Of a DNA stretch of 16,059 bases, positions 2 to 16,057 are shown one piece after another. The translations under genes and the position numbers were made by a program. The DNA is from Azolla caroliniana (Eukaryota > Plantae > Polypodiophyta): NCBI GenBank assembly GCA_043228905.1, contig JBHGNT010000763.1:1-16059 (forward strand), given 5' to 3'. Position 1 is the stretch's first letter; every line of letters starts with the position of its first letter. Below the pieces are notes generated by a model. It saw nothing but the letters and a program-made list of their open reading frames with translations, made no database searches and had not been told where the DNA came from.

Positions 2-2492
2 AAAGTCTTCTCATGCTTCCCAGATTTGAAGAACCTTGTCAAACGCGAGACCGGAAGAAAGATCAAGTGTCTGAGATTGGATGGCGGGAAAGAGTACTTT
101 TCCAGCCAGTTCACGAGCTATCTTCAGACAAAGGGAATCCGACGGGAATTCTCTTGCAGATACTCGTCGTAGCAGAATGGCATGGCCGAGCATCGAAACA
201 GGACGTTAGTAGCAGTGGCAAGGGAGATGCTTGAGGAGAAAAGCATGCCCAAGTTTTATTGGGCCGAAGAAATTCGGACAGCCGACTACATCCAAAATTG
301 GATATCTGCCTCAATGACAAAGGTGTCGCCGCACGATCTGTATTTTGAGTAGAAGCCTAATTTAGCGCACCTTTGGATGAAAAGCGAAGGAAAATTGATG
401 CAAAATCCGAGAAGTGCATCCTGGTTGGCTACTCGGATGAACAGAAGGGTTATAAGCGTTATAACGCCTGATCGAAAGTGGTCCGAGTTAGCTGAGATGT
501 GGTTTCTGATGAATTGGCATCTTGGTACTTCTCTCCACCCGAACTTGAGCTGATTATTGTAGATGATCCGGTGGAATCTGGAACAGAGAGAAGTGTCACA
601 GAATCCGAATAATCGGATAGTCCAACTTCTCTCTGGATGAGTGAACCGAATCTAGAGTGGTCAACTGGATGATGAGCCGGTGAATAGTTTAAAGACTCGG
701 CCATGCTCTCCCCGTGCAAGGAACCGAGGAGACGGTTCATGCGCCAAGAAAAAGGGAAGAAGAAGATGCTAGAGTACAACACCGACCGAGCCGAGTTGGA
801 TTGGAGTGAATCTGACTCTCACAGGATAAAAAAGGAACCTCTGAGGAAGAGGTCAAAGTCGGCTGAGAAGGCCGCGAAATTGGCGAATCAGGAATTGTGT
901 TGATCCACCCACCAGAAGAACCCCGTGAAGAGGTACGAGTATAATGAGTATATGGCACATCATTATGCGTACATGATGAAGGTGGTGGTAGTGCGTGAAT
1001 CAGAGAGGTATGCAGAAGTGGTGAAGGACGCAAATTGGCGTGCCGCTATGGAGGAAGAGATGCACGCACTCACGGAAAATGAGATGTGGGATTTAGTGGA
1101 CGTACCGACATGAGTGAAGCCGATCGGTTGCCAATGGGTATACAAGGTTAAATACAACACCAATGGCTCCGTCAAAAGGTACAAGGCATGATTAGTGGCC
1201 AAAGGCTACGTGCAGCAACACAACATCGACTACGATGAGACGTTCACGTCGGTCGCGAAGATGACGACCGTTCGTGTCCTGCTTGCGGTGGCAACGACGA
1301 AGGGGTGACATCTACATCAAATGGATGTGAAAAGTGAGTTCCTACAAGGTGATCTTGAGGGACAAGTATACATAGTTCAGCCCCCCGGATTTCAATTCGT
1401 TTATGGACTAAAGCAAGCCCCACGTGCTTGGAACGTGAAGATCACGCAGCGACTGCGTCGGATGGGGTTTTCCGTGTCAAAGCCAGATTCTTCACTCTTC
1501 ATCTGGCAAGGTTAGAACCGGCCGGTTAGTATTTTATTTTATTTTGATGATTTAGTCATCGCCGGCACCGACCCGGATGAAATCAACCGCGTCAAGTCCG
1601 AACTTGCAGCATCATTTGACATGAAGGATCTTGGGAACCTTAATTACTTCCTCGGGATCGAAGTGATCCACAACCCCGGAGGCATACTGATAAGCCAACG
1701 GCATTATGTGCTGAGTATGCTCTTCAAATTTGGTATAATGGAATGCAAATCTGTTTCGACTCCATTGGACCGAAATGTGAAGCTTTGCCCTGACTCTATA
1801 ACGGCATGCGACCCGAAAAGGTTTTGACAGATAGTTGGAAGCCTCATATATCTGACAATCACCCAACCGGATCTCAACTATCCGGCCACACTAATTAGTC
1901 AACTTATGGCACATCTAACCTTGGAGCACATTCAATGCGCGAACCAAATACTGAGGTACGTCAACGACACTATGGACAAGGGGTTGCTATATCGGACTGG
2001 TGTAGCCGGACAGCTTGTCAGCTACACGGATGCCGATTGGGCTAGAAATGCTTGCGACCTCAGGTCTACATCTGGAGATGTGTTTTCACTAGGAAGCGCC
2101 GCTGTCTCCTGGAGTAGTAAAAAGCAACCGATAGTAGCATTGTCGAGCACAAAGACTGAGTACAGAGGAGCGGTTGTTGCAACGTGTGAAGCCAAATAGC
2201 TCCTGAAGGATCTGCGAGTGGAGGTGTCTGATCCAACGATGATCTATTGTGACAACCTCAACAACATCCAATTGGCAAAGAATCCCATCTTGCATGCCTG
2301 GACTGAGCACATTGAGGTGCCCTATCATTTTGTTTGAGAGCGCGTTCTCTCCGGTGAAGTGGAACTGTCACATGTTTCGACAGATCGGCAGGTGGCTGAT
2401 ATCTTCACCAAACCCCTCGGCTTGGACAAGTTGCAGCAATTTTCCGGTGCACTAGGTGTGCAATACCTCAATATGCCACACTTGAGGGGGAG
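2..2492 (+). pseudogene. pol: Copia pol pseudogene: integrase core/C-terminus, reverse transcriptase, RNase H, with many stops and frameshifts
   Basis: Manual translation and ORF track. Integrase: IKCLRLDGGKEY, QNGMAEHRNR, KCILVGYSDEQKGY. RT: WRAAMEEEM, QMDVKSEFLQGDL, YGLKQAPRAW, FYFDD, MKDLGNLNYFLGIEV. RNase H: YTDADWA, SWSSKKQPIVALSS, QVADIFTKPL. Confidence 0.95.
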
Positions 2493-2924
2493 TAATGAAA
2501 GGAGGAATGAGAAAGACGACCGAAAAGATGAGTCGAAAACTAATTTCGACTTCGGCCCGACTCATGAAGTTGGAATGCATGGGACTCGGAAGCCGAGACC
2601 AGACGTAGGGGGAGCCACCAAAATGGAGAGCCCAATTCGGAGCCAACCGAAAGAGGGGGAGGCAAAGCCGGAAAGGCCGAGACACGGACTGAGAGCTCTA
2701 GAAATCGGAGTCGAGTTGGAGACAACTAGCTCTGTTAAGGAAGAAGACGAATCGGAGATAGCCGATTCGGTCGGTAGTAGAAATGAATTGAATGTACCCG
2801 ATTCAATCATAATGTTAGATTCGGAGGAGCCGAATCTACGATGGGCCAAGCGGACAAAAAAGGCAGCCAAAGCCGACGCTTTACAGAGGAGCCAACAGGG
2901 CCAGGGGCGCTAGCACCGCGACAG

Positions 2925-3398
2925 TGTTAAGAGTCTATTACTAATCAATAGACCAAATCAAGTAAAAAGGAAGAAAATAGATTGGATAGAAGAACCCGTT
3001 CCACCCGACCACCCCCGAGCTATGATCTAGACATAGCCAACCTACCACCGACGTCCCATACCGCCGGATATTAGGATGACTAATACCTTGGAAGAGATAA
3101 ACACGATCGTCGAGACGAAAGCCTAGCCCGCACCACCGGTGTCTACGACAGCAGCCTTCCGACGTGATGATCCCTATGAGGGTAGCTAAGCTTCATATTT
3201 ATACCTTTTCTTAGGCCCCTTGAATAGATGTGCCTTTCTAAAAGGCTCTCTATTCATTGGTTGTCTAAATCATGATAGTGCATGCACATATCATTCATTC
3301 TATCCAATCATTAGTCCCCTTTTTAATAATAGTGAACATACCCTTCACTAATGTAAATATTAGTGACCTACCCTCACCAACGTTATGTGTACATAACA
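2925..3398 (-). repeat. 3' LTR of element A (474 bp)
   Basis: TGTTA...TAACA termini; matches 10124-10596 apart from 4 substitutions and one 1-bp indel by eye. Confidence 0.97.
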
Positions 3399-3414
3399 TA
3401 CTCCCCTACTTCAA
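3399..3414 (-). promoter_or_regulatory. Polypurine tract of element A
   Basis: The minus strand reads GAAGTAGGGGAGTA immediately before the 3' LTR; the pol TAG stop (3406-3408) lies inside it. Confidence 0.85.
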
Positions 3415-6400
3415 AAGATTGCACTCTTGCAATATAAAGTGAGGAAATTGTGCCTTAAGCGAATGCTCGCGTTCCCATGTGGCATCATCAATAGGTTTAT
3501 CCATCCATTTGATCTTGAATAGCCGAATCTCTTTAGAACGTAAACGTTTAGTACGAGAATCAAGAATTCGTTCAGGAACATGAGGTTTGTAAGAAAAATC
3601 CTCTAATGTTACAAGATCTTGGATTGTGATGGTGTTATCACCAGAGCCTAAAATTGGTTTTAGACGACTGACGTGAAAAACAGGATGAATACCAACGTTA
3701 CGAGGTAAGGCAAGGTGATAAGCAGATGACCCAACTCGCTTAAGGATTTCAAATGGGCCACAATATCGTGGGGCTAACTTAGCGCACTTGCCCGTAGATG
3801 ATGACGTAGAATCAGTCGGGACACGCAAAAAAACTTTTTGACCAATAGTAAATGCACGAGGACGTCTATCCTGATCAGCATAAAATCGAGCACGATCTTG
3901 AGCTGTCTTGACATTTTCTTTGGCAATATGCAACATTTGGTTCATGTCTTGCAAAAAATTGCGTGTACTGTCTAATGTATCACGATGAATCGTGACATCA
4001 ACTGGGGCACGTGGCTGAAAACCATACATCAACATAAAAGGACTATATCCAGTGGATGTATGTTTAGAGCTATTATAGGCAAATTCTAAGATAGGAAGGT
4101 ATTGCTCCCACTTAGAAGGGGTTTTTGCTACATAAGCTCGAAGCATGTCCTCAATAATTTGATTAACTCGTTCAGTTTGTCCATCAGACTGAGGATGATC
4201 TGCGGAACTCATGCTCAACGTAGTTTCTAGTTTCTTAAAGACCTGAGTCCAAAAGTCACTAGTAAACTTGGAATCTCGATCACTAACAATATCCATCGGT
4301 AATCCATAAAAATGAAATAACTCATCAACAAATTGATAAGCCAATTGTTGAGCGGTTACCGTGGTTTTTGTAGGAATAAATCTAGCTAATTTTGTTAGCC
4401 TGTCAACGACAACCCATATGGCATCATGACCCCTCTGTGTACGAGGTAAACTAACAATAAAATCCATCGAGATACTTTCCCATTTATTGTTGGGAATATC
4501 TAAGGGATGTAAAAGACCAGCAGCTTTAAGTCGTTCCGACTTATTAATCTGACATTGTAAGCATTGAGTTACGTATTTATGCACGTCAGAGCGCATCTTA
4601 GGCCAGAAAAAAGTACACGAGATGAGAACGAGTGTGCGTTGTATTCCAGGATGACCAGCAGATGGTGCATCATGACATTCATGAAAAATTTTCTGTTTAA
4701 CATTTGGTAAATCTGGAACACAAACCTTTCCACTACGGTAGAGCAAACCGTTTGTAATGTGAAAGGTCGCCTTCGAGGGTAGGGTGCTAGTATCGGCATC
4801 TAAACCAGATTCGGCTTTCGTCCAGTATTTTGAGAAATAACTGTCATCAAGGTATTTCCCTCGAAGGTGATCTAAAAGATCAGATTTTATTTCCGTGAAG
4901 CTAAGCATGTTAACTTCTTTAATGCGACTAAGAGCATTAGCAACGGTGTTCATAGAACCCTTGCGATATCGTATGGAAAAATCAAAATCTTGCATAAGGT
5001 CAGCCCAACGGCCTTTACGACCAACAAGATCGGGCTGGTCACAAAAATACTTTAATGATTGATGGTCTGTTGTAACCACAAATTTATTTCCATAGAGATA
5101 GTGCCTCCATGTTTTAAGTGCGTGTATCACCGCAAACAACTCTTTCTCTTGAACCAAATACCGAGATTGAGCAGCATCAAGCTTCTTACTTTCAAAAGCA
5201 ATAGGGTGACCACCTTGATAAAGAACGGCACCAATAGCATAATCACTAGCATCGGTTTCAATTGAGAAAGGCTTAGAAGGGTCTGGTAATAGAAGAGTGG
5301 GAGCCTGACACACATGCTCCTTGAGTGTCTCAAATGATTTGTCAAGTTGTTCATTCCATGAAATTGGTTTGACAGACTTACGTGGATGACCTTTTAAAAG
5401 GTCAGTTAATGGCGTAGTCAATTTGGAATAGTTACGAATTGATTTTCGTAAAAATCCAACAAACCCTAAGAATGATCTAAGTTCACGAATATTACGAGGA
5501 ATGGGCCAAAGTTTAACCTTTTCAATACGAGAAGGTTCAATTTCAACGCCATTTTCTGTAATTAAATGACCTAGGTACACAATAGATTTTTGGAAGAAGT
5601 CACATTTTGAATGTTTTGCATAGAAAGAGTTGTCACGCAACTTTCGCAAAACAAATCGAACATGTTGAACATGATCTTGCAAGGTATGGCTATATATCAA
5701 AATATCATCCAAGAAGACGACAACAAAATCACCGAGTTGATCTCGGAAAACATCATTCATCGCTTGTTGGAATGTGGCTGGAGCATTAGTCAACCCAAAC
5801 GGCATGACTAAAAACTCATAATGGCCATAGCGCGTACGAAAAGCGGTTTTAGGAATATCATCCTCGGCGATGCGAATCTGATGATAACCAGTTCGTAAGT
5901 CAATTTTCATAAAATATCGAGCCCCGTGCAAACGATCAATCAAATCATCGGCACGAGGTAATGGATATGCATTCTTAATTGTCATTTTATTCAAACGGCG
6001 ATAATTGATACACATTCGCCACGAACCTTCCTTCTTCTTGACTAATAGAACTGGCGCACCCCAAGGTGATTTACTATACCTAATGTGGCCCATACTCAAG
6101 TATTCCTTAAGTTGTTTAGCGATCTCATCCTCTTCTAATCGACTAAGTCGGTAAGGTGGAATGCTCACAGGAGCAGCCCCAGGGATGAGTTCAATTTGAT
6201 GGTCCACATTACGTTTAGGTGGTAAAGTAAGCGGTAATTCAGTAGGAAACACATCTTGAAAATCCTCTAAAATAGAGTCGAGTAATCGTTGCTCAAAATG
6301 TGGTAATTGTGTGGCGTCAATATTAAAATAATAAAATTGAACCGCAGGATCAATTACACACGAATAAATTAATGAACTAGAATACTCACTTAAAGATTTA

Positions 6401-6551
6401 GAAGACACAAGTGAATGAGAAGGAAGTTTGGAACATTGAATAAAATGTTTACAATTATTAAGTTCAAATGTGATTGAGTGATTAACCCAATCAATGGACA
6501 AAGAAGGGTTTTTATTAAAAAACCAAGGATATCCTAAAATGACATCTGCGG
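3406..6551 (-). CDS. pol: Element A pol: protease C-terminal end, RT, RNase H, integrase and C-terminal chromodomain (open frame; annotated ORF 3406-6501)
   Basis: Motifs DVILGYPW, SPWGAPVLLVKKK, VMPFGLTNAPATFQ, FLDD, ETDASDYAIGAVL, TDHQSL, integrase HHCC (H..GH..C..C), SMDF, VSDRD, DGQTER, GPF, HPVFHVS and chromodomain PERILDSR...IKW...ATWE. Confidence 0.95.
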
Positions 6552-6640
6552 TGTCGTGCCTTTCGGCTCCGGATCGTTTGCGTGAGTCGGGTGGGAACCG
6601 CTGGGGTTTTGGACTAGGAAGAGGAGAGTTTTAAGGCTAA

Positions 6641-6800
6641 TAAGAATATAAATATGTTGTAAGAAAGAGTTATAGCAAACTCGTGAATCCCACGAGTGTA
6701 TTGTATTAGATTAATCAATATGAATATAAGAATATAAACTTCGGTTGAAAGAGAATGATATAGAATTCTCGTGAATCCCACGAGTATAGTTTATTAATTG
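6641..6800. repeat. Two diverged ~87-bp tandem units in solo LTR B, each with the hairpin CTCGTG-AATCC-CACGAG
   Basis: TAAGAATATAAA at 6641 and 6727; CTCGTGAATCCCACGAGT at 6680 and 6768. Confidence 0.75.
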
Positions 6801-7110
6801 GTGTTTTTTAGAAACATATCCAGTTTCCAAATATTTTTCACACACAATTACATTGTGCTCCCCATCCTTATGTAGTGATGAGGAAGTCTTAGTAATCTAT
6901 GCTTTTTCTCTAACTATAGACCCCATGCTTTTCCTATAGATAGACTATATGCTTTATCTAAAGTGATCATGCTTTTTTCTAACTTGTGCGTTTTTTATCA
7001 TGCACGCTAGATGTGTATGTGTAGCTTTTTCTTTTGTTATGCGTTTTTCTAATGTTTATCCTAGCGTGAATTTACCTTTCTATGTGGGACATCTATGCTT
7101 TAACACTAAT

Positions 7111-7183
7111 GAAATGCTAGTGTAATGGTAAGACATTACATTATTAACATGGAGGTGCAAGGTTCGAATCTTGCCCTATGCAT
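7111..7183 (+). ncRNA. tRNA-like Pol III (A-box/B-box) module in solo LTR B; not a canonical tRNA
   Basis: A box TAGTGTAATGG (7118-7128), B box GGTTCGAATCT (7161-7171), GCAAG/CTTGC stem, T-runs at 7194-7197 and 7220-7225. Confidence 0.6.
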
Positions 7184-7280
7184 GTTCCATTTATTTTGCT
7201 ATTTTCTTCTATTTCTTCATTTTTTATTGAATCTAATACTATATACGTTTTTCACGTAGTGTACAAAATACACTACGACA

Positions 7281-7452
7281 GCGGATTGTAATTTCATAAC
7301 ATGAAAGTCAAGCTTCTCCAAATAAGTATCTATTTGAATTGGCAGTTGACAAACAATGCCACTGATGTATTGAACGTTTCCATTTGCCATGTGAACTTGA
7401 TAGATATGATCACTTGCGTTTATGTGGAGCTCCATTTGCTGTGTGACTCGTA
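7281..7452 (-). pseudogene. Element A protease, central fragment; catalytic D-S/T-G half missing
   Basis: RVTQQMELHINASDHIYQVHMANG...DFHVMKLQSA resembles a gypsy protease after the active site; I found no DSG/DTG motif between gag and this fragment. Confidence 0.75.
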
Positions 7453-8357
7453 GATTTGTCTTGAGGAGGGGTGTTCATTGACTTCCTCTCAAGACGACGA
7501 CAGGTATCCTTTGTGTGGCCCCGCTTCTTGCAATCTGCACAGAAGAGGTTCGGTTTCTTTGAGTCGCGGTCAAGAGTGTCACTGGATTGCTTACGTTTCC
7601 CAATGAACTTGACATTCGGAGTTTTGGCGAACTCAGGTTTATTGTGGTCTTTCTTGGAAGTCCTATGGTATCGCAGCACAATGTTGATGGCTTCCTCGAA
7701 AGTTGTGGGGTCCTTGTCATGGACAATCCAATGATAATCCCCATTGGGAATACCATTCAAAAAACAAGCGACAAACCATTTCTCACCCGTAAGTCCCGAT
7801 TTTTGGATCTGGGTCCGAGCGTGATGCACATAATCCTCGAGAGAGGTAAATGGCTTACTAGACAATGTGAGCAAGTGTTGCGCTTTTTCGGTTTGAGAAG
7901 GTGGATGCAAGAATTGTTTCTTAAAAACATCAACGAAACCTTCCCAAGTTGTGGGTAAGTTTTTTGCGGTCCTTAGGCCACGCCACCAAGCAGCAGCTCG
8001 GCCACCTAACTCACGACCGACATAACCAATTTTTACTGCATCGGGCTTGGGATGAAGCTCAAAGTGAGACTCCCAACGACCAAGCCAAGTGCTAATGGCC
8101 TCCTCAGTTCTTTCTTTCTTATCTCCCTTGAAAGGCGTGACTACGAAGGAAGGTTCACCTTCTTTCTTGGACTCAATAGTTAATTCTTGGAATTTCTTTT
8201 CCAATGCCATATTGGCCTGTCTCATTTCGGCCAATTGATTCAAGGTAGTAGTGAGCAATTGCTCAATAGTGATCTCAGCTTGTGTGCGAGATGCGGATTG
8301 GGGTTGAGAGGTCTCATTTGGAGAGATCGTTCCAACTGCGTTCAAAACTTGTTCCAT
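7410..8357 (-). CDS. gag: Element A Gag (capsid plus CCHC zinc knuckle), 315 aa
   Basis: Coiled-coil N-terminus, PFKGD..WL..WESHF, LGGRAAAWW, TWEGFVDVFKKQF, zinc knuckle CADCKKRGHTKDTC. Confidence 0.92.
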   Translation of the reverse strand: MEQVLNAVGTISPNETSQPQSASRTQAEITIEQLLTTTLNQLAEMRQANMALEKKFQELTIESKKEGEPSFVVTPFKGDKKERTEEAISTWLGRWESHFELHPKPDAVKIGYVGRELGGRAAAWWRGLRTAKNLPTTWEGFVDVFKKQFLHPPSQTEKAQHLLTLSSKPFTSLEDYVHHARTQIQKSGLTGEKWFVACFLNGIPNGDYHWIVHDKDPTTFEEAINIVLRYHRTSKKDHNKPEFAKTPNVKFIGKRKQSSDTLDRDSKKPNLFCADCKKRGHTKDTCRRLERKSMNTPPQDKSTSHTANGAPHKRK

Positions 8358-9349
8358 GATGCACGTTGTGGGTATGCAATAAAATAAGGAGGTTCAGAAA
8401 ATACACAAGCAAAATGAATGCTTGAAATTTTGATTGAAAGAACTTTATCCAAGAAAGTATCTCATGTCTTTACCCCTCTAGACATATGAGATGTGATTCG
8501 AGATCCGATAACTATGGTAACACTATGGTGTTTTAAAAACCATGGGGGAAAACATAGCTAAGATGTATTTCTCAGATCTCTATCTTGAGTAATCATGGCG
8601 GCTCCCCGAGGCTCAACCATGGTTCTTACATCAATGAAATTTCCTAGATAGCCTTATATTAATGCCAACCCATCATGTATTATATGGTCGAGAAAGTGTA
8701 TTACGTGAAAAAACAAGTGCACTCACAAGTAATATTCTAGTCTTGCGAGCAATAAGCAAACGTGATGATAAAATGATAAAATAAGGCACTACTCATAAGA
8801 GTTAAGTAGTGACGAAAACAAGGGTAAAAAAAAAAAAAAAAAAGAACCCATGTGTTACCTACGAAAAAAAAACAATGTCACAAATAAATGGGAAGTGCAA
8901 GGTATGCACATATACATCCCAATATGATTGTTATAACTTGCACAATTGTGACATAAGCCACAATTTGATACAAGTGATGACGGTGTTGTGCGCAAAGATG
9001 TAATACTCAAATCCATGAGTAAAACATCAATAAGGGAACTCATATGGTTTTACTCGTTTTCTAAGGCTTGATGATAAGAGTTAAACCTAGATGACCCGTT
9101 GAAAAAAAAATCGTTCAACAAGCCACTCCATACGAAAAAAATAGTCTACACGTAAAGGTTACATCAAAAGTAAACAATGTAAATACTTTATACACGAAAA
9201 GGAAGTGGAAAAAGGAGAGTTAATTGTGGGCGGGTAAATAATAATTACTAGAAAATCATATAAGTGAAACAATACTTATGAAATTAAAATTTAATTAGAA
9301 TAATCAACAATTAGGTGTATGGAATCAAACATGCCCTAAGATACGAAAC

Positions 9350-9686
9350 CCTAGGGTAGTTGACATGCACCTCCTCAAGACCACCACCTATCCCTAGAAT
9401 CGGCCAAGTAATGGCTAATTAAAGAGGAAAGTGGCATAGGTAAGTGACATATACCTCGTCAAGGCCACATCATCCCTTAGAATCGGCCAATTGATGGCTA
9501 ATTAAAAAGGAAAGTGGCATATGTAAGCTACATATACCTCGTCAAGGCCACATCATCCCATAGAATCGGCCAATTGATGGCTTAATAGAGAGTAGAGTGG
9601 CATAGGTAGGCAACATACACCTCGTCAAGGCCACATCATCCCTTAGAATCGGCCAAGTGATGGCTCAATAGAGGGGAAGAGTGGTA
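9350..9686. repeat. ~4 tandem copies of an 83-84-bp unit in the 5' leader of element A
   Basis: GTGG(CA/TA)T at 9431, 9514, 9597 and 9681; core CCTCGTCAAGGCCACATCATCCC..AGAATCGGCCAA.TGATGGCT. Confidence 0.9.
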
Positions 9687-9697
9687 TACTCAACATC

Positions 9698-9885
9698 ATA
9701 TGCAAAACGGCCATGAGATAAGCGTGTGCGATTAGAGCAAACACGCTCGACCCAATGCACAAGAATAATTATTATCGTAAGAGTTCAAGAGAGGAGAGAG
9801 TGGGATATATATCGCAATATGCAAAAGGCCATGAGTTGAGCGTGTGCGATTAGTGCAAACACGCTCGGCCCGATGCATAATAATA
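9698..9885. repeat. Duplicated ~70-bp unit with a stem-loop in the element A leader
   Basis: ATATGCAAAA.GGCCATGAG...AGCGTGTGCGATTAG.GCAAACACGCTCG at 9698 and 9817; stems AGCGTGT/ACACGCT. Confidence 0.85.
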
Positions 9886-10110
9886 AGTAAAATCGTAGCG
9901 TAGTAGGAGGTAGAAAGAAAGAGAATAAAACGTAATACCAATTTGATTCGACCATAAAGAACGCATAATAGAAAAAGAGAAGAGATCAAAAAAGAAGAAT
10001 ACCGGGTTTAGAGTGTTGTTTTGATCCTGAGAAGAGCATGACGAGCCTTGTTAGATCCCCCTCGCTCACACGCAAAAAACATCAAAACAACAAAAAAATT
10101 GTTAGTAAAA

Positions 10111-10122
10111 GCTCTGATACCA
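10111..10122 (-). promoter_or_regulatory. Primer-binding site for initiator tRNA-Met (element A)
   Basis: Minus strand TGGTATCAGAGC, 1 nt inside the 5' LTR end; this is the classic plant tRNAi-Met PBS. Confidence 0.95.
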
Positions 10123-10123
10123 C

Positions 10124-10596
10124 TGTTAAGAGTCTATTACTAATCAATAGACCAAATCAAGTAAAAAGGAAGAAAATAGATTGGATAGAAGAACCCGTTC
10201 CACCCGACCACTCCCGAGCTATGATCTAGACATAGCCAACCTACCACCGACGTCCATACCGCCGGATATTAGGATGACTAATACCTTGGAAGAGATAAAC
10301 ACGATCGTCGAGACGAAAGCCTAGCCCGCACCACCGGTGTCTACGACAGCAGCCTTCCGACGTGATGATCCCTATGAGGGTAGCTAAGCCTCATATTTAT
10401 ACCTTTTCCTAGGCCCCTTGAATAGATGTGCCTTTCTAAAAGGCTCTCTATTCATTGGTTGTCTAAATCATGATAGTGCATGCATATATCATTCATTCTA
10501 TCCAATCATTAGTCCCCTTTTTAATAATAGTGAACATACCCTTCACTAATGTAAATATTAGTGACCTACCCTCACCAACGTTATGTGTACATAACA
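10124..10596 (-). repeat. 5' LTR of element A (473 bp)
   Basis: Copy of 2925-3398; adjacent to the PBS; followed by TSD GACAG (10597-10601). Confidence 0.97.
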
Positions 10597-12554: not shown

Positions 12555-14778
12555 GGGTTGTGCATCTGGACCACAAGAGTCGACAATTGTGTCAAGGGCC
12601 CAATCAACCAACTGCCTCAACAACAAGCTTCACACTTCCGATCACTCTTCAGTTTCGCTCTGAAGATAAAAGCTTTGTTGGATTCTGGGGCTATGTCGTG
12701 CTTTATTGATATCATGTTTGCACGGACACACAACATTCCAAGCAATAAAATAACTGTCCCGATTCCAGTTGAAGTGATTGACGGTCGAACGCTCTCTTCT
12801 GGTGCAATCACAGATACAACAATTCCCTTGAGTCTCCACATAGGAGGCCACCAAGAAGAAATCATTTTTAACCTCATCACATCACCTCGACATCCTATCA
12901 TCTTGGGGTTATCATGGCTCGAGACTCACAATCCAATCGTGGATTGGCAATCTCGCACCATTAACTTCACCTTGAATTCTTGCCCACAAGCGATTGCTTC
13001 CACTCTTCTTTGAGCCAATGCTCTGCCATTTGTTTGGACGCTTGTTCCGGCGAGGACCACATCAACGGTTGCTCCAATGCCCATTTCTACTCCGGTGAGG
13101 ACTGTGTCAACGGTTGCTCCCACTCATGTTTTGGAGGCAACTCCCGTTTCTGCTCCGGTGAGGACCACGTTAGCGGTCGCTCTGATTCCCATTTATGCTC
13201 TAGTAAGGACCGCGTCAACAGTTGCTCCCACTCATGTTTTGGAGGCAACTCCCATTTATGCTCTAGTGAGGACCGCGTCAACGGTTGCTCCCACTCATGT
13301 TTTGGAGGCAACTCCCATTTCTGCTCCGGTGAGGACCAAGTTAGCGGTCTCTCCCATTTCCTCTTCCGCGAGTACCGTGTCAACGGTTACTCCAATAGAA
13401 ACAACATCGATAGTTACTCCCGCTTCGGCCTCAAAAACAGTTTCCACCCTTGCTCGGGTAAGTGATATAGTGTTGATTGCATCCATTTCTAATTCTAAGG
13501 ACATGGCGGTCATGTCCACTCCAGACATTGCCCTATGTACTAGCTCTTTTCCATCAAAATACAATGACTTCTTTGATGTATTTGAGAAGAAAAAAGTTGA
13601 GCGTCTGCTTGAACATTGCCCATACGATTGTCCAATTGACTTGAAAGATGGTGCTTGTCCTCCTTTTTGCCCTGTCTATGGGTTATCTGAATCTGAACTC
13701 AAGGCCCTCAAAATATATATTGAAGAGAATCTCACAAAGGGATTTATTCGCCACTCAAAATCTCTAGTTGGCTATCCTACCCTATTTGTCAAAAAGAAAC
13801 ATGGAACGTTACGCTTATGTATCAACTATCGCGGGCACAATCGAGTCACTGTTCGAAACCGCTATCCACTACCTCTAATCCCCGAACTCCTCGACCGACT
13901 TCGGGCTAGGTGTATATTCTCCAAAATCGATCTCAGAGGCGCCTACAACTTGGTGCGTATCAAGCATGGAGATGAGTGGAAAACGACATTTCAAACCAGG
14001 TACAAGCATTTTGAATACACAGTAATGCCATTTGGTCTCACAAACATTCATCCAATTTTTCAACATATGATGAATGATATCTTCCGAGAATATCTGGACC
14101 AATTTGTGATCATCTATCTCGACGACATACTTATCTTCTCACAGGACTACATAGAGCACACCAAGCACATCCAACTTATCCTGTCCAAACTTCGGAAACA
14201 TGGACTTTATGCAAAACCTGAGAAGTGTGAGTTTGATCGAACCTCAATTGAATTCCTCAGGTATGTTATTTCATCTGATGGTCTCACTATGGACAAGAAG
14301 AAAGTCGCAACGGTTCAAGAGTGGGAAGTCCCCACCAGGATCAAGGATATGCAATCATTTTTGTGTTTTGCCAACTTCTATCGTCAATTCATTCAAGGAT
14401 TCTCTACATTGGCGCAACCCCTTATAGCACTCACTCAGAAAGATTCTCCTTTTTGCTGGACTCCTACAACCCAACTGGCATTCGAGACACCTAGATCTAC
14501 ACCTAGATCTGACCAAACCATTTATGATCGAAATTGATGCCTCTGACTTCGCCATTGGTGCCATTCTCTCTCAATCAGATAACAATGGGATCCTTCATCC
14601 TGTTGCCTTTTATTCTCAGAAGTTCACACCCCCTGAGATCAACTACCCAGTTTATGACAAAGAACTCTCTGCCATTATTGCCGCCTTTGAAGAAGGGTGT
14701 CCTTACTTGGAGGGCGCCCAACACCGTGTCCAGGTGGTGGCCGATCACAAGAACCTTGTCTACTTCACCACTACTCGC
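12533..14778 (+). pseudogene. pol: Element C pol pseudogene: protease, repeat linker, RT, partial RNase H
   Basis: ALLDSGAMSCFI, PIILGLSWLETHNPIVDW, YPLPLIPELLDRL, KIDLRGAYNLVRI, VMPFGLTN, YLDD, EIDASDFAIGAILSQ, NYPVYDKEL, DHKNLVYF. Confidence 0.93.
13050..13365 (+). repeat. In-frame minisatellite of 45- and 63-bp units between protease and RT of element C
   Basis: Units start at 13050, 13095, 13158, 13203, 13266 and 13329 and encode VRTxSTVAPTHVLEATPxxAx or VRTTLAVxxxPIxAx. Confidence 0.9.
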
Positions 14779-14883
14779 TGTCAGGAACAGTACTGAGACA
14801 GAGAAGGAATCAGTACTAAACGAAGGATTAGTACTATGAGAGGTGTAGAACTTCTTCGAGAGAAGGAAGGAGTGAGCAAGACG

Positions 14884-14896
14884 GAGAGAAAGAGAG

Positions 14897-14937
<41 letters not shown>

Positions 14938-14945
14938 GTGAGTGA
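14884..14945. repeat. Compound (AC)/(AG)15/(GTGA) microsatellite in R/U5 of LTR D
   Basis: Direct reading; (AG)n at 14905-14934. Confidence 0.95.
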
Positions 14946-15163
14946 TGATAAGAAAGATATGTATTATATGAAGAGAATATACAATGGTGGCTAAAAGGCT
15001 TAAGACTGGCGTTGAACCAATTTGGTTCAACATAATGCCTAGTGCCCTCTTTTATAGTGTTTTCAGGAGTAATCCTGAAGCTTCTAGAATGTTCCAGAGA
15101 AATCTGGAATATACACTAATTTCCTATAATAAAATGTAAATGAAAATAATATCCTACGTATTA

Positions 15164-15236
15164 CAATAGATGGTCTAATGGTAAAGAGCTCGACCCATAT
15201 AACCTAAGGTCATGGGTTCGAGTCTTGCCATATCAT
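15164..15236 (+). ncRNA. tRNA-like Pol III (A-box/B-box) module at the U3 tip of LTR D; not a canonical tRNA
   Basis: A box TGGTCTAATGG (15171-15181), AGGTC variable-loop-like segment, B box GGTTCGAGTCT (15215-15225); 44-nt spacing as in tRNA U8 to G52. Confidence 0.6.
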
Positions 15237-16057
15237 GACACTATCCTCCCTTTGAAACGACGAGTGTCACGAGTCGTCTTGGATTGAGGACCCGGTTTGT
15301 GTGGATATTGACGATGGAAGTCTTCAAGAAGAGCACGAGCATTGGTCATATTCTCGATCGGTTCCCAAGTACGTTTGTTGGGACTATAGCCTAGCCAATC
15401 GACTAGATAGTAGAGCTTGTTGCGAACAATCTTGGAATCAAGGATGGCGGCAACCTCGTACTCCGGCCCATCTTCAAGGTCGATCGGGGGTGGAGGTTGG
15501 ATAAGACATCCTGGGATGGTGCTCTCGTGGTAGGGTTCAAGGAGAGAACTATGAAACACCGGATGTATCCGAAGTTGAGGAGGTAGATCGAGACGAAAAG
15601 CGACATCATTAATCTGTCCAATAATACGGAAAGGACCTAATCGCCGATAATCCAACTTCTCACATGGGCGAGTAGTCTTGATGTGTCGTCGTAGCAGCCA
15701 CACCCGATCTCCAATATTAAAACTGGATGGAAGTCGATGACGATCCGCGTAGACCTTGTGTGTTTGTTGAGCTTGCTAAAGATGAGTATATAAATCCGCT
15801 TGTATCTTTCGTAACCGCTCCAAACGATCCTCCGCGCACGGATTTGTGGACACCTCTGGGGTTTCAAGTACACTCCACCGGGGGTGACATCCCGTACAAG
15901 CATAAAATGGCGTAACTTTAGTGGATGCGTGGATAGAGTTGTTATAGGCAAATTCGGCGAAGTGGAGAATATCTGCCCAGTCGTCCTGATGATAACTGAG
16001 AAAGCACCGCAGATACTGCTCCAGCGTTTGATTTGTTCGTTCAGCTTGGCCGTCGGT
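15233..16057 (-). pseudogene. pol: Element D integrase C-terminal half, GPY/F module and classical chromodomain; one in-frame stop
   Basis: TDGQAERTNQTLEQYLR, FAEFAYNN, TAG at 15776-15778, KLDYRRLGPF, IHPVFHSSLL, YEVAAILDSK...YLVDWLGY...TWEP. The stop codon lies inside the LTR. Confidence 0.93.
15241..15255 (-). promoter_or_regulatory. Polypurine tract of element D
   Basis: The minus strand reads CAAAGGGAGGATAG followed by TGTCATG. Confidence 0.8.

What the first reader, a model, noticed from the sequence alone, without database searches (positions are those of the whole stretch)
7111..7225. A second, unrelated LTR (solo LTR B) carries the same kind of tRNA-like module, here with a Pol III terminator
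Seen: A box TAGTGTAATGG (7118) and B box GGTTCGAATCT (7161) 43 nt apart, with D-like (TGT/ACA), anticodon-like (TACAT/ATGGA) and T-like (GCAAG/CTTGC) stems, followed by T4 and T6 runs. It shares ...TAATGGTAA...AGGT.CA.GGTTCGARTCTTGCC with the module in LTR D, although the two LTRs are otherwise dissimilar in length and sequence. Both appear to be antisense within U3 (B's orientation is inferred). Recurrence in two families argues for a selected LTR component rather than a chance SINE insertion. High-copy solo LTRs would scatter Pol III/TFIIIC sites across the genome. This is the best candidate here for an undescribed system.
Basis: partly seen in the sequence, partly recalled or inferred. Interest (0 to 1): 0.82.

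Follow-up and report, generated by a model that had tools for sequence, protein, structure and literature searches.

The report
Outward tRNA promoter in retrotransposon LTRs
A lineage of intact plant jumping genes keeps the two promoter boxes of a transfer-RNA gene, facing outward at the edge of its end repeats, with no shared RNA fold or stop signal, and a second, likely unrelated repeat carries the same boxes, so they likely serve as a protein-docking site on DNA that would shield the element's own promoter from silent chromatin.

Summary
The module is real and recurs well beyond this window. Solo LTR B (6552-7280, 4-bp target duplication) and LTR D both carry tRNA-type A and B boxes 43-44 nt apart. 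The same module lies antisense at the outer U3 edge in 7 metagenome loci. With D these form one integrase clade of self-priming, Tcn1-type chromoviruses, several with intact gag and pol (8 of 8 rows with the LTR held; none in 63 other loci). Boxes and spacing are kept while the spacer is at shuffle level. The cloverleaf shows no covariation, and the terminator is not conserved (first T4 11 to >1000 nt away), so the proposed 85-115-nt structured RNA is not supported. Best reading (0.45): a selected TFIIIC/Pol III assembly site acting on DNA as a barrier or open-chromatin anchor for the LTR's Pol II promoter. Binding and function are untested. B's orientation and lineage (Phygy-like by target site) remain inferred. 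It is not Helenus, which is non-autonomous and sense. Earlier scan notes report promoter boxes in chromovirus LTRs of a fungus-like genome, read there as landing pads; I saw no such insertions here (0 of 7 modules inspected).

The parts
6552..7280 (-). Solo LTR B, 729 bp, TG...CA; strand inferred (about 75%); lineage probably not Tcn1 (Phygy-like target site)
6548..6551 (+). Left copy of the 4-bp target site duplication of B (GCGG, fits NCGN)
7281..7284 (+). Right copy of the 4-bp target site duplication of B
7111..7183 (+). tRNA-derived promoter module of LTR B (tRNA geometry; D- and T-arm remnants)
   Evidence: (found at E 0.0017 by a profile built without it)
7118..7128 (+). A box of B
7161..7171 (+). 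B box of B
7194..7225 (+). T4, T4 and T6 runs; could stop Pol III in this copy but are not a conserved part of the module
6868..6875 (-). TATA-like box of B on the minus strand (one mismatch); a rival perfect TATA lies on the plus strand at 6647
14779..15240 (-). LTR D, 462 bp, 3' LTR of a Tcn1-type self-priming chromovirus
15164..15236 (+). tRNA-derived promoter module of LTR D, antisense, ending at the LTR's outer end (A box 15171-15181, B box 15215-15225)
15050..15057 (-). Pol II TATA box of LTR D, 114 nt from the A box, divergent from the module
15008..15018 (-). Inferred R start of LTR D (self-primer, complementary to the site behind the 5' LTR in relatives)
15241..15254 (-). Polypurine tract of element D
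15236..15775 (-). Integrase C-terminus of D: SH3 and group I chromodomain (aromatic cage residues present)
2925..10596 (-). Element A, chromovirus host of B (LTRs 2925-3398 and 10124-10596, 98.9% identical, 5-bp duplication); its LTRs lack the module

Best explanation
The LTRs keep a tRNA-derived A box and B box at tRNA spacing, facing outward at the outer edge of U3, and these likely act as a TFIIIC/TFIIIB (Pol III) assembly site on the DNA that would shield or open the element's own Pol II promoter. Shown: the boxes, their spacing, their position, strand and clade-wide retention in the D lineage, and the loss of a shared fold and terminator. Inferred: (1) an ancestor of this Tcn1-type clade captured a tRNA or SINE head into U3, and reverse transcription copied it into both LTRs; (2) TFIIIC binds the boxes and loads TFIIIB onto the AT-rich stretch between the module and the Pol II TATA, 114-243 nt away; (3) in the 5' LTR this complex sits between the flanking chromatin and the Pol II start, where it would block heterochromatin spreading and read-in transcription, which matters to an element that targets heterochromatin by a group I chromodomain and needs an exact 5' end to self-prime; (4) any Pol III RNA is a by-product of variable length; (5) LTR B got the module by transfer of a U3 piece or by a second capture.
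For: Spacing is 43-44 nt in 9 of 9 modules, while B box to LTR end ranges 26-120 nt and A box to TATA 114-243 nt. Mean pairwise identity over six families: spacer 0.49 vs 0.47 shuffled, upstream 0.55 vs 0.54, A box 0.63 vs 0.51, variable-loop segment 0.72 vs 0.45, B box 0.69 vs 0.46 (the boxes were used as anchors, so only the variable-loop segment is independent of the selection). Module in 8 of 8 rows with the LTR held in one clade (SH-aLRT 98; integrase segments 57-95% identical to the query), none outside. Intact gag and pol frames in L001 and intact pol frames in L003 and L007. Cloverleaf: 49% of cells paired, 214 of 500 shuffles as high, acceptor 41% and anticodon 35%; empty consensus fold. 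No fixed terminator. The 40 nt upstream are 78-95% AT in 8 of 9 modules against 60-68% for whole LTRs. Precedent outside plants: tDNA barriers need TFIIIC and Pol III and work in either orientation (PMC2040200, abstract); TFIIIC sites curb neighbouring Pol II read-through (PMC4228148, abstract); group I chromodomains bind H3K9me2/3 (PMC3350952, passages).
Against: No binding, chromatin or RNA data. Some copies are degenerate: L027 A box 7 of 9, and L005 B box lacks the C61 position. The textbook pattern misses 5 of 9 modules because their A box starts TAT, and D-family copies vary at A-box positions 15173 and 15175. The genomic RNA must cross the same site in the 3' LTR, so a strong roadblock would cost the element. 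Related chromodomain elements (for example L009, L011-L013, L041, L052) do without it. The passages read from a plant barrier review give tRNA-gene and TFIIIC barriers only for animals and yeasts (PMC9540200). D- and T-arm stems are partly kept (59% and 68% of cells), so a small RNA role is not excluded. All seven module loci have neighbouring assembly accessions and may reflect one host group.
Confidence: 0.45

Rival explanations
1. The boxes drive Pol III transcription of an unstructured antisense RNA from the 3' LTR across the polypurine tract into the integrase end. This RNA pairs with the genomic RNA and feeds siRNA or copy-number self-restraint.
For: Both boxes and tRNA spacing are kept. 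In three of seven families the first T4 is 452-1026 nt away, and D has none in 834 nt. L003's 991-nt T4-free stretch exceeds the largest gap (645) elsewhere in its last 3 kb.
Against: In four of seven families a T4 comes within 11-40 nt. L001's 515-nt gap is within its ordinary range (max 789). Solo and 5' LTRs would transcribe unrelated flanks.
Confidence: 0.2
2. The module is a mobile landing pad: it recruits TFIIIB, and Ty3-like integrases insert just upstream of it, building nested retrotransposon islands.
For: Earlier scan notes e1-10420520 and e1-10420559 report this for chromovirus LTR boxes in a fungus-like genome (unchecked). Ty3 targeting of Pol III starts is established (search listing).
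Against: 0 of 7 modules inspected have an insertion in the 60 nt upstream of the A box (140-nt U3 read-outs show none for L002 and L004 either). The window's own insertions (B in A's protease region, D in another element's RNase H region) are not next to a module or tRNA gene. The loose ends shown near 7101-7138 and 15157-15189 look like family variants, but only the best few of about 900 and 500 were displayed. A landing pad gives the carrier no obvious benefit.
Confidence: 0.12
3. It is a neutral relic of one ancient SINE or tRNA insertion into the ancestral LTR, passed on by descent.
For: The single-clade distribution fits one origin. Some boxes are degenerate.
Against: The spacer and upstream sequence have decayed to shuffle level while the boxes, the variable-loop segment and the spacing persist. 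LTRs of the clade barely align outside a few motifs. The module also occurs in the dissimilar LTR B.
Confidence: 0.1
4. It is a foamy-virus-like U3 cassette making a defined structured small RNA of 85-115 nt.
For: B alone folds with z = -3.4 to -4.0 and D with z = -4.3; B has T4 and T6 runs downstream; D- and T-arm stems are partly kept.
Against: B's and D's predicted folds differ from each other and from a cloverleaf. There is no consensus structure or covariation and no conserved terminator.
Confidence: 0.08
5. The motifs are bound by Pol II factors, or pair with the transcript's 5' end during reverse transcription, and only look like Pol III boxes.
For: The sense strand of the B box is partly complementary to the R start in D and L001.
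Against: In L003 the R start and the self-priming site have changed together while the B box has not followed. Two boxes at exact tRNA spacing plus the variable-loop segment are hard to get by convergence.
Confidence: 0.05

Closest known systems
Helenus / TRIMp3 (Kojima 2024, PMC10886601; whole main text read, plus a supplement passage with Helenus-1_SMo)
   Same: A tRNA-derived sequence inside LTRs with conservation centred on boxes A and B and no functional tRNA; solo LTRs scatter the module.
   Different: Helenus is non-autonomous (311-1263 bp) and uses the promoter in sense to make its own template (Helenus-1_SMo is sense to its PBS and PPT). Here the carriers are autonomous, keep a Pol II TATA, and have the module antisense at the outer U3 edge. 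The paper notes that 'not a few LTRs' in Repbase hold tRNA-like sequence but studies only TRIMs.
Cassandra TRIMs (as described in PMC10886601; original paper not read)
   Same: A Pol III promoter from a small-RNA gene carried in both LTRs of a plant retroelement.
   Different: 5S-derived, non-autonomous, sense, with conserved terminators and a shown transcript.
Foamy virus U3 Pol III miRNA cassettes (PMC6950176, passages)
   Same: A Pol III unit in U3 of an autonomous LTR retroelement, some with A/B boxes.
   Different: Those make a 111-128-nt dumbbell RNA with a terminator. Here neither fold nor terminator is conserved.
tDNA and TFIIIC chromatin barriers of yeasts (PMC2040200 and PMC4228148, abstracts)
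   Same: An assembled Pol III complex acting on neighbouring chromatin and Pol II transcription regardless of orientation; this is what the module most likely works like.
   Different: Those are host tRNA genes or ETC sites in fungi. Here the site is carried by the mobile element, is in a plant, and is untested.
Tcn1 chromoviruses and Phygy elements (Neumann et al. 2019, PMC6317226, passages and supplement 5; Novikova et al. 2010, PMC2864245, passages)
   Same: D clade: group I chromodomain, self-priming, T-rich leader, 415-464-bp LTRs. B: 4-bp NCGN duplication as in Phygy.
   Different: The passages read mention no tRNA-like module in these LTRs.

Membership tests
Helenus / TRIMp3 | tRNA-derived sequence with boxes A and B in the LTR | tested here: met
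Helenus / TRIMp3 | Non-autonomous, short, no coding capacity | tested here: not met
   L001 has intact gag and pol frames; L003 and L007 have pol frames of 1235 and 1183 aa. B is a 729-bp solo LTR whose interior is unknown.
Helenus / TRIMp3 | Promoter in sense orientation, driving the element's template RNA | tested here: not met
   Antisense in D and 7 loci; for B inferred only
Functional tRNA gene | Cloverleaf with acceptor and anticodon stems | tested here: not met
Recent SINE insertion | Own target duplication and tail, few copies | tested here: not met
   Longest flanking repeat 6 nt (shuffle mean 6.5), longest A run 4; clade-wide presence
Tcn1 chromovirus (element D clade) | Group I chromodomain with aromatic cage | tested here: met
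   Pfam Chromo E 5e-14; cage residues visible in alignment A2
Tcn1 chromovirus (element D clade) | Self-priming site instead of a tRNA PBS | tested here: met
   7-12-nt complement between the site behind the LTR and the R start in 4 of 4 loci that hold that junction, co-varying in L003
Tcn1 chromovirus (element D clade) | Placement in the Tcn1 clade with named reference elements | tested here: inconclusive
   The tree holds no named reference; a Batrachochytrium protein is among the homologues at 52%
Tcn1 chromovirus (element D clade) | 5-bp target duplication | not testable with these tools
   D's other end lies outside the window and no genome is held
Phygy (LTR B) | 4-bp NCGN target duplication | tested here: met
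   GCGG against the table; one site only, and Selgy, TatI/II and Galadriel also make 4-bp duplications
Phygy (LTR B) | Non-chromovirus polyprotein and tRNA-Trp PBS | not testable with these tools
   No full-length B element found
Foamy-virus-type Pol III cassette | Conserved double hairpin plus terminator | tested here: not met
tDNA-type chromatin barrier | TFIIIC and Pol III occupancy, and blocking of heterochromatin spread | not testable with these tools
   needs ChIP and reporter assays

The most novel reading that the evidence does not exclude
Heterochromatin-targeting retrotransposons of a non-seed plant carry their own tDNA-type chromatin barrier: an outward-facing TFIIIC/Pol III site at the U3 edge, kept across a whole autonomous lineage and passed to an unrelated gypsy lineage. 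Each insertion insulates its promoter, and the many LTR copies seed TFIIIC boundary sites through the genome, which would be the first element-borne Pol III insulator in plants.
Probability: 0.35. Interest if true: 0.85.

Novelty: new variant of a known kind. Interest (0 to 1): 0.66.

Why it matters
Elements that aim at heterochromatin must still be transcribed there, and how they manage this is open. A built-in Pol III barrier is a concrete answer that a two-base change in a reporter can test. It would also give plants a first tractable test of tDNA/TFIIIC insulation, so far shown in yeasts and animals. It would extend the Cassandra/Helenus idea (Pol III promoter as the element's own engine) to a different use in autonomous elements. 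High-copy LTRs bearing such boxes could shape chromatin boundaries genome-wide and may inflate tRNA gene predictions, as Helenus does in rust fungi.

Tried and rejected
No whole genome is held, so copy numbers, full-length B elements and nested-insertion statistics could not be computed. ARAGORN found nothing in the window or in 15 of 15 loci scanned, and Rfam gave no tRNA match. Scans of viral contigs with the module pattern, the D integrase end and B's terminus found nothing; nor did B's terminus in prokaryote genomes. No RNA holder was listed for the B stretch, which is no evidence on expression. The one guessed-RNA run laid on D gave 6 diverged contigs and was not used. Contig depth peaks over the B module in 4 of 4 runs, but the tool states that contig depth cannot rank parts of a stretch, so I do not count it. 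Strand-skew comparison cannot orient B: the first-to-last difference is the same on both strands, and the absolute T-A skew slightly favours the plus strand. Rejected: a conserved cloverleaf, a conserved terminator, a SINE duplication or tail, and pairing of the B box with the transcript's 5' end. Sequence look-ups in earlier findings were empty, as was one word look-up. Literature searches for a prior description of an antisense A/B module in autonomous plant LTRs returned only Kojima 2024 or unrelated papers; subscription journals and Repbase entries were not searchable. The supplements of PMC7466625 held no matching motif. From recall only: the Supplementary Discussion of Li et al. 2018 (PMC6786969) reports very high tRNA-gene counts in two ferns and suggests hitchhiking with LTR elements. 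That file was too large to read, the other nine had no such text, and it may bear on novelty. The sequence file and main table of PMC6317226 were also too large. Simms et al. 2008 was not held.

Full report
Setting. The window is a nest of LTR retrotransposons. A copia-like remnant is interrupted by element A, a minus-strand chromovirus with LTRs at 2925-3398 and 10124-10596, 98.9% identical, and a 5-bp duplication. Solo LTR B (6552-7280, TG...CA) sits in A's protease region, flanked by a 4-bp duplication GCGG. Empty-site joints 6547->7281 with four shared letters occur in 4 of 4 DNA runs laid. LTR D (14779-15240) is the 3' LTR of another minus-strand element: a polypurine tract and the SH3-chromodomain end of integrase lie to its right. 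Both LTR families are repetitive: 1853-3560 contigs per run were laid on the B stretch and 3061-5021 per DNA run on the D stretch. The host is a plant by the run labels and probably a non-seed plant by its element types.

The observation. An unfitted textbook pattern is expected 0.02 times per shuffled window, and 0 of 2000 shuffles gave two. The stems are weaker than stated. The T-like stem of B needs an 8-nt loop and is absent as such in D, and the anticodon-like stem has 4 of 5 pairs in B but 2 of 5 in D. ARAGORN and Rfam call no tRNA. The T4 and T6 runs exist, but B has 15 T4+ runs on that strand. The last A of the shared string TAATGGTAA is a minority letter in the D family.

Relatives. 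I aligned D's integrase end with 17 of the 120 listed homologues and scanned metagenome contigs. Seventy loci hold at least 150 nt behind the integrase match. Seven of them (L001, L002, L003, L004, L005, L007, L027) carry the module on the antisense strand, just inside the LTR start that follows the polypurine tract; the other 63 do not. A pattern fitted to the modules hits 8 places in 1.21 Mb of both strands, all of them modules (L027 is missed), and 0 in 20 shuffles. The unfitted pattern finds 4 of the 9 modules plus two off-position hits, against a shuffle mean of 0.65. A profile built without B finds B as its best new hit (E 0.0017); without L007 it finds L007 (E 0.00025); without L027 it finds only L027's B-box half (E 0.19). 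On an integrase tree of 81 rows, the 8 module rows (7 loci and D) plus L006 and L018, whose LTRs are not held, form one clade with SH-aLRT 98 (quick search, no bootstrap, no named references). All seven loci have neighbouring assembly accessions, so the host range of the clade may be narrow.

What kind of elements. L001 has intact gag and pol frames, and L003 and L007 have pol frames of 1235 and 1183 aa, so the carriers are autonomous. In 4 of 4 loci that hold the junction behind an LTR, the bases there are complementary over 7-12 nt to the R start, and in L003 both have changed together. This is the self-priming arrangement that Neumann et al. predict for 83% of Tcn1 elements (PMC6317226, passages and supplement 5). 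It fixes orientation and start site: the module lies upstream of the TATA box, in U3, antisense and facing out of the element. D's chromodomain keeps the aromatic cage. B differs. It has no Tcn1 R-start motif, and it has a 4-bp NCGN duplication, which that table gives for 100% of Phygy and 0% of Tcn1 elements; this rests on one site, and other lineages also make 4-bp duplications. B's orientation is inferred at about 75%. On the minus strand it has a TATA-like box with one mismatch, preceded by short degenerate repeats and followed by poly(A)-signal-like motifs and a pyrimidine patch. A perfect TATA also lies on the plus strand at 6647, though many copies diverge from 6619 on. No full-length B element was found.

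What is conserved. Spacing is 43-44 nt in 9 of 9 modules, the tRNA distance, whereas B box to LTR end is 26-59 nt in the D clade and 120 in B. Across six families (near-duplicates L001 and L002 and the cut L004 left out), the spacer and the upstream 60 nt are at shuffle level (0.49 vs 0.47; 0.55 vs 0.54). The A box (0.63 vs 0.51), the variable-loop segment (0.72 vs 0.45) and the B box (0.69 vs 0.46) are not; the two boxes served as anchors, so the variable-loop segment is the independent part of this test. Within the B family none of the 40 best-supported variants falls in 7118-7186, while 7096-7098, 7117, 7187-7188 and 7199-7200 vary (104 more not shown). Within the D family none falls in 15205-15240, but 15173, 15175, 15183, 15199, 15202 and 15204 vary (71 not shown). 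The fold is not conserved: 49% of cloverleaf cells pair, 214 of 500 shuffles do as well, acceptor and anticodon stems stand at 41% and 35%, D and T stems at 59% and 68%, and RNAalifold predicts no pair. The terminator is not conserved: the first T4 behind the B box comes at 11, 18, 22 (B), 40, 452, 530 and 1026 nt (twice), and there is none in the 834 nt held for D. No duplication or tail flanks module B. This is the signature of a DNA promoter element under selection, not of a structured RNA or a fresh SINE.

How it most likely works. Shown: anatomy, strand and retention. Inferred: TFIIIC binds the boxes and places TFIIIB on the AT-rich stretch between the module and the Pol II TATA (78-95% AT in 8 of 9 modules). 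In a 5' LTR this complex stands between the flank and the Pol II start. In fission yeast a tDNA with TFIIIC and Pol III blocks heterochromatin in either orientation (PMC2040200, abstract), and in budding yeast TFIIIC sites limit Pol II read-through (PMC4228148, abstract). Elements with group I chromodomains are thought to insert into H3K9-methylated chromatin (PMC3350952, passages), and self-priming needs an exact 5' end, so both services would pay. Against this: the genomic RNA must cross the same site in the 3' LTR; sister lineages lack the module; some boxes are degenerate; and the passages read from a plant review cite such barriers only for animals and yeasts (PMC9540200). I give it 0.45. 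The rivals are a regulatory antisense RNA (0.2), a landing pad for Ty3-like integrases (0.12; suggested by earlier notes on a fungus-like genome, but 0 of 7 modules inspected have an insertion in the 60 nt upstream), a neutral relic (0.1), a structured small RNA (0.08) and a non-Pol III motif (0.05).

Comparison with what is known. Helenus TRIMs carry tRNA-derived boxes in their LTRs but are non-coding and use them in sense (PMC10886601, whole main text; supplement passage). Two defining features fail here, so this is not Helenus. That paper says in passing that 'not a few LTRs' in Repbase hold tRNA-like sequence and that autonomous partners must use Pol II, which fits the retained TATA here. 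Foamy viruses have Pol III cassettes in U3 but with a dumbbell RNA and terminator (PMC6950176, passages). Papers on Tcn1 and moss retrotransposons mention no such module in the passages read (PMC2864245; PMC7466625). Searches found no description of an antisense A/B module in autonomous plant LTRs. Subscription papers, Repbase notes and two large supplements were out of reach.

Verdict. A real, clade-wide, probably selected tRNA-derived Pol III promoter at the outer U3 edge of autonomous Tcn1-type elements, with a second occurrence in a probably unrelated LTR family. It is a new variant of a known kind. Its function is untested but cheap to test. Interest 0.66.

Noticed in passing
window 15077-15099 (minus strand); L001, L002 and L003 U3: Arrays of alternating GAA/TTC units matching the recalled heat-shock-element consensus lie between the module and the TATA box in D, L001 and L003 (five overlapping matches in L003); absent from L005, L007, L027, B and A.
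   Followed up: partly
window 15008-15035; L001, L003, L007, L027: Self-priming site and R start co-vary across families, a clean sequence-level sign of Tf1-type self-priming in plant Tcn1-type elements; the R start sits in a small palindrome.
   Followed up: partly
L001:1: The contig begins exactly at the predicted R start, which may mark the Pol II start site or only an assembly break at the palindrome.
   Followed up: no
L003:1001-1054 and 6318-6395 (minus): Weak B-box-like matches (E about 0.01) at the same homologous place, between protease and RT, in two tandem related elements 84% alike.
   Followed up: no
L003, L007, L027: An LTR is followed directly by a self-priming site and another gag, as in tandem elements sharing an LTR or in collapsed assemblies.
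   Followed up: no
window 13035-13393: A tandem array of 45/63-nt units encodes a Thr/Val/Ala/Pro-rich spacer between protease and RT in the plus-strand gypsy element that D interrupts.
   Followed up: no
window 9392-9897: The long leader of element A holds three 83-nt repeats and two 118-nt repeats between the PBS and gag.
   Followed up: no
window 6656-6708 and 6744-6796: LTR B has a duplicated unit with a short palindrome next to a poly(A)-signal-like motif on the minus strand.
   Followed up: partly
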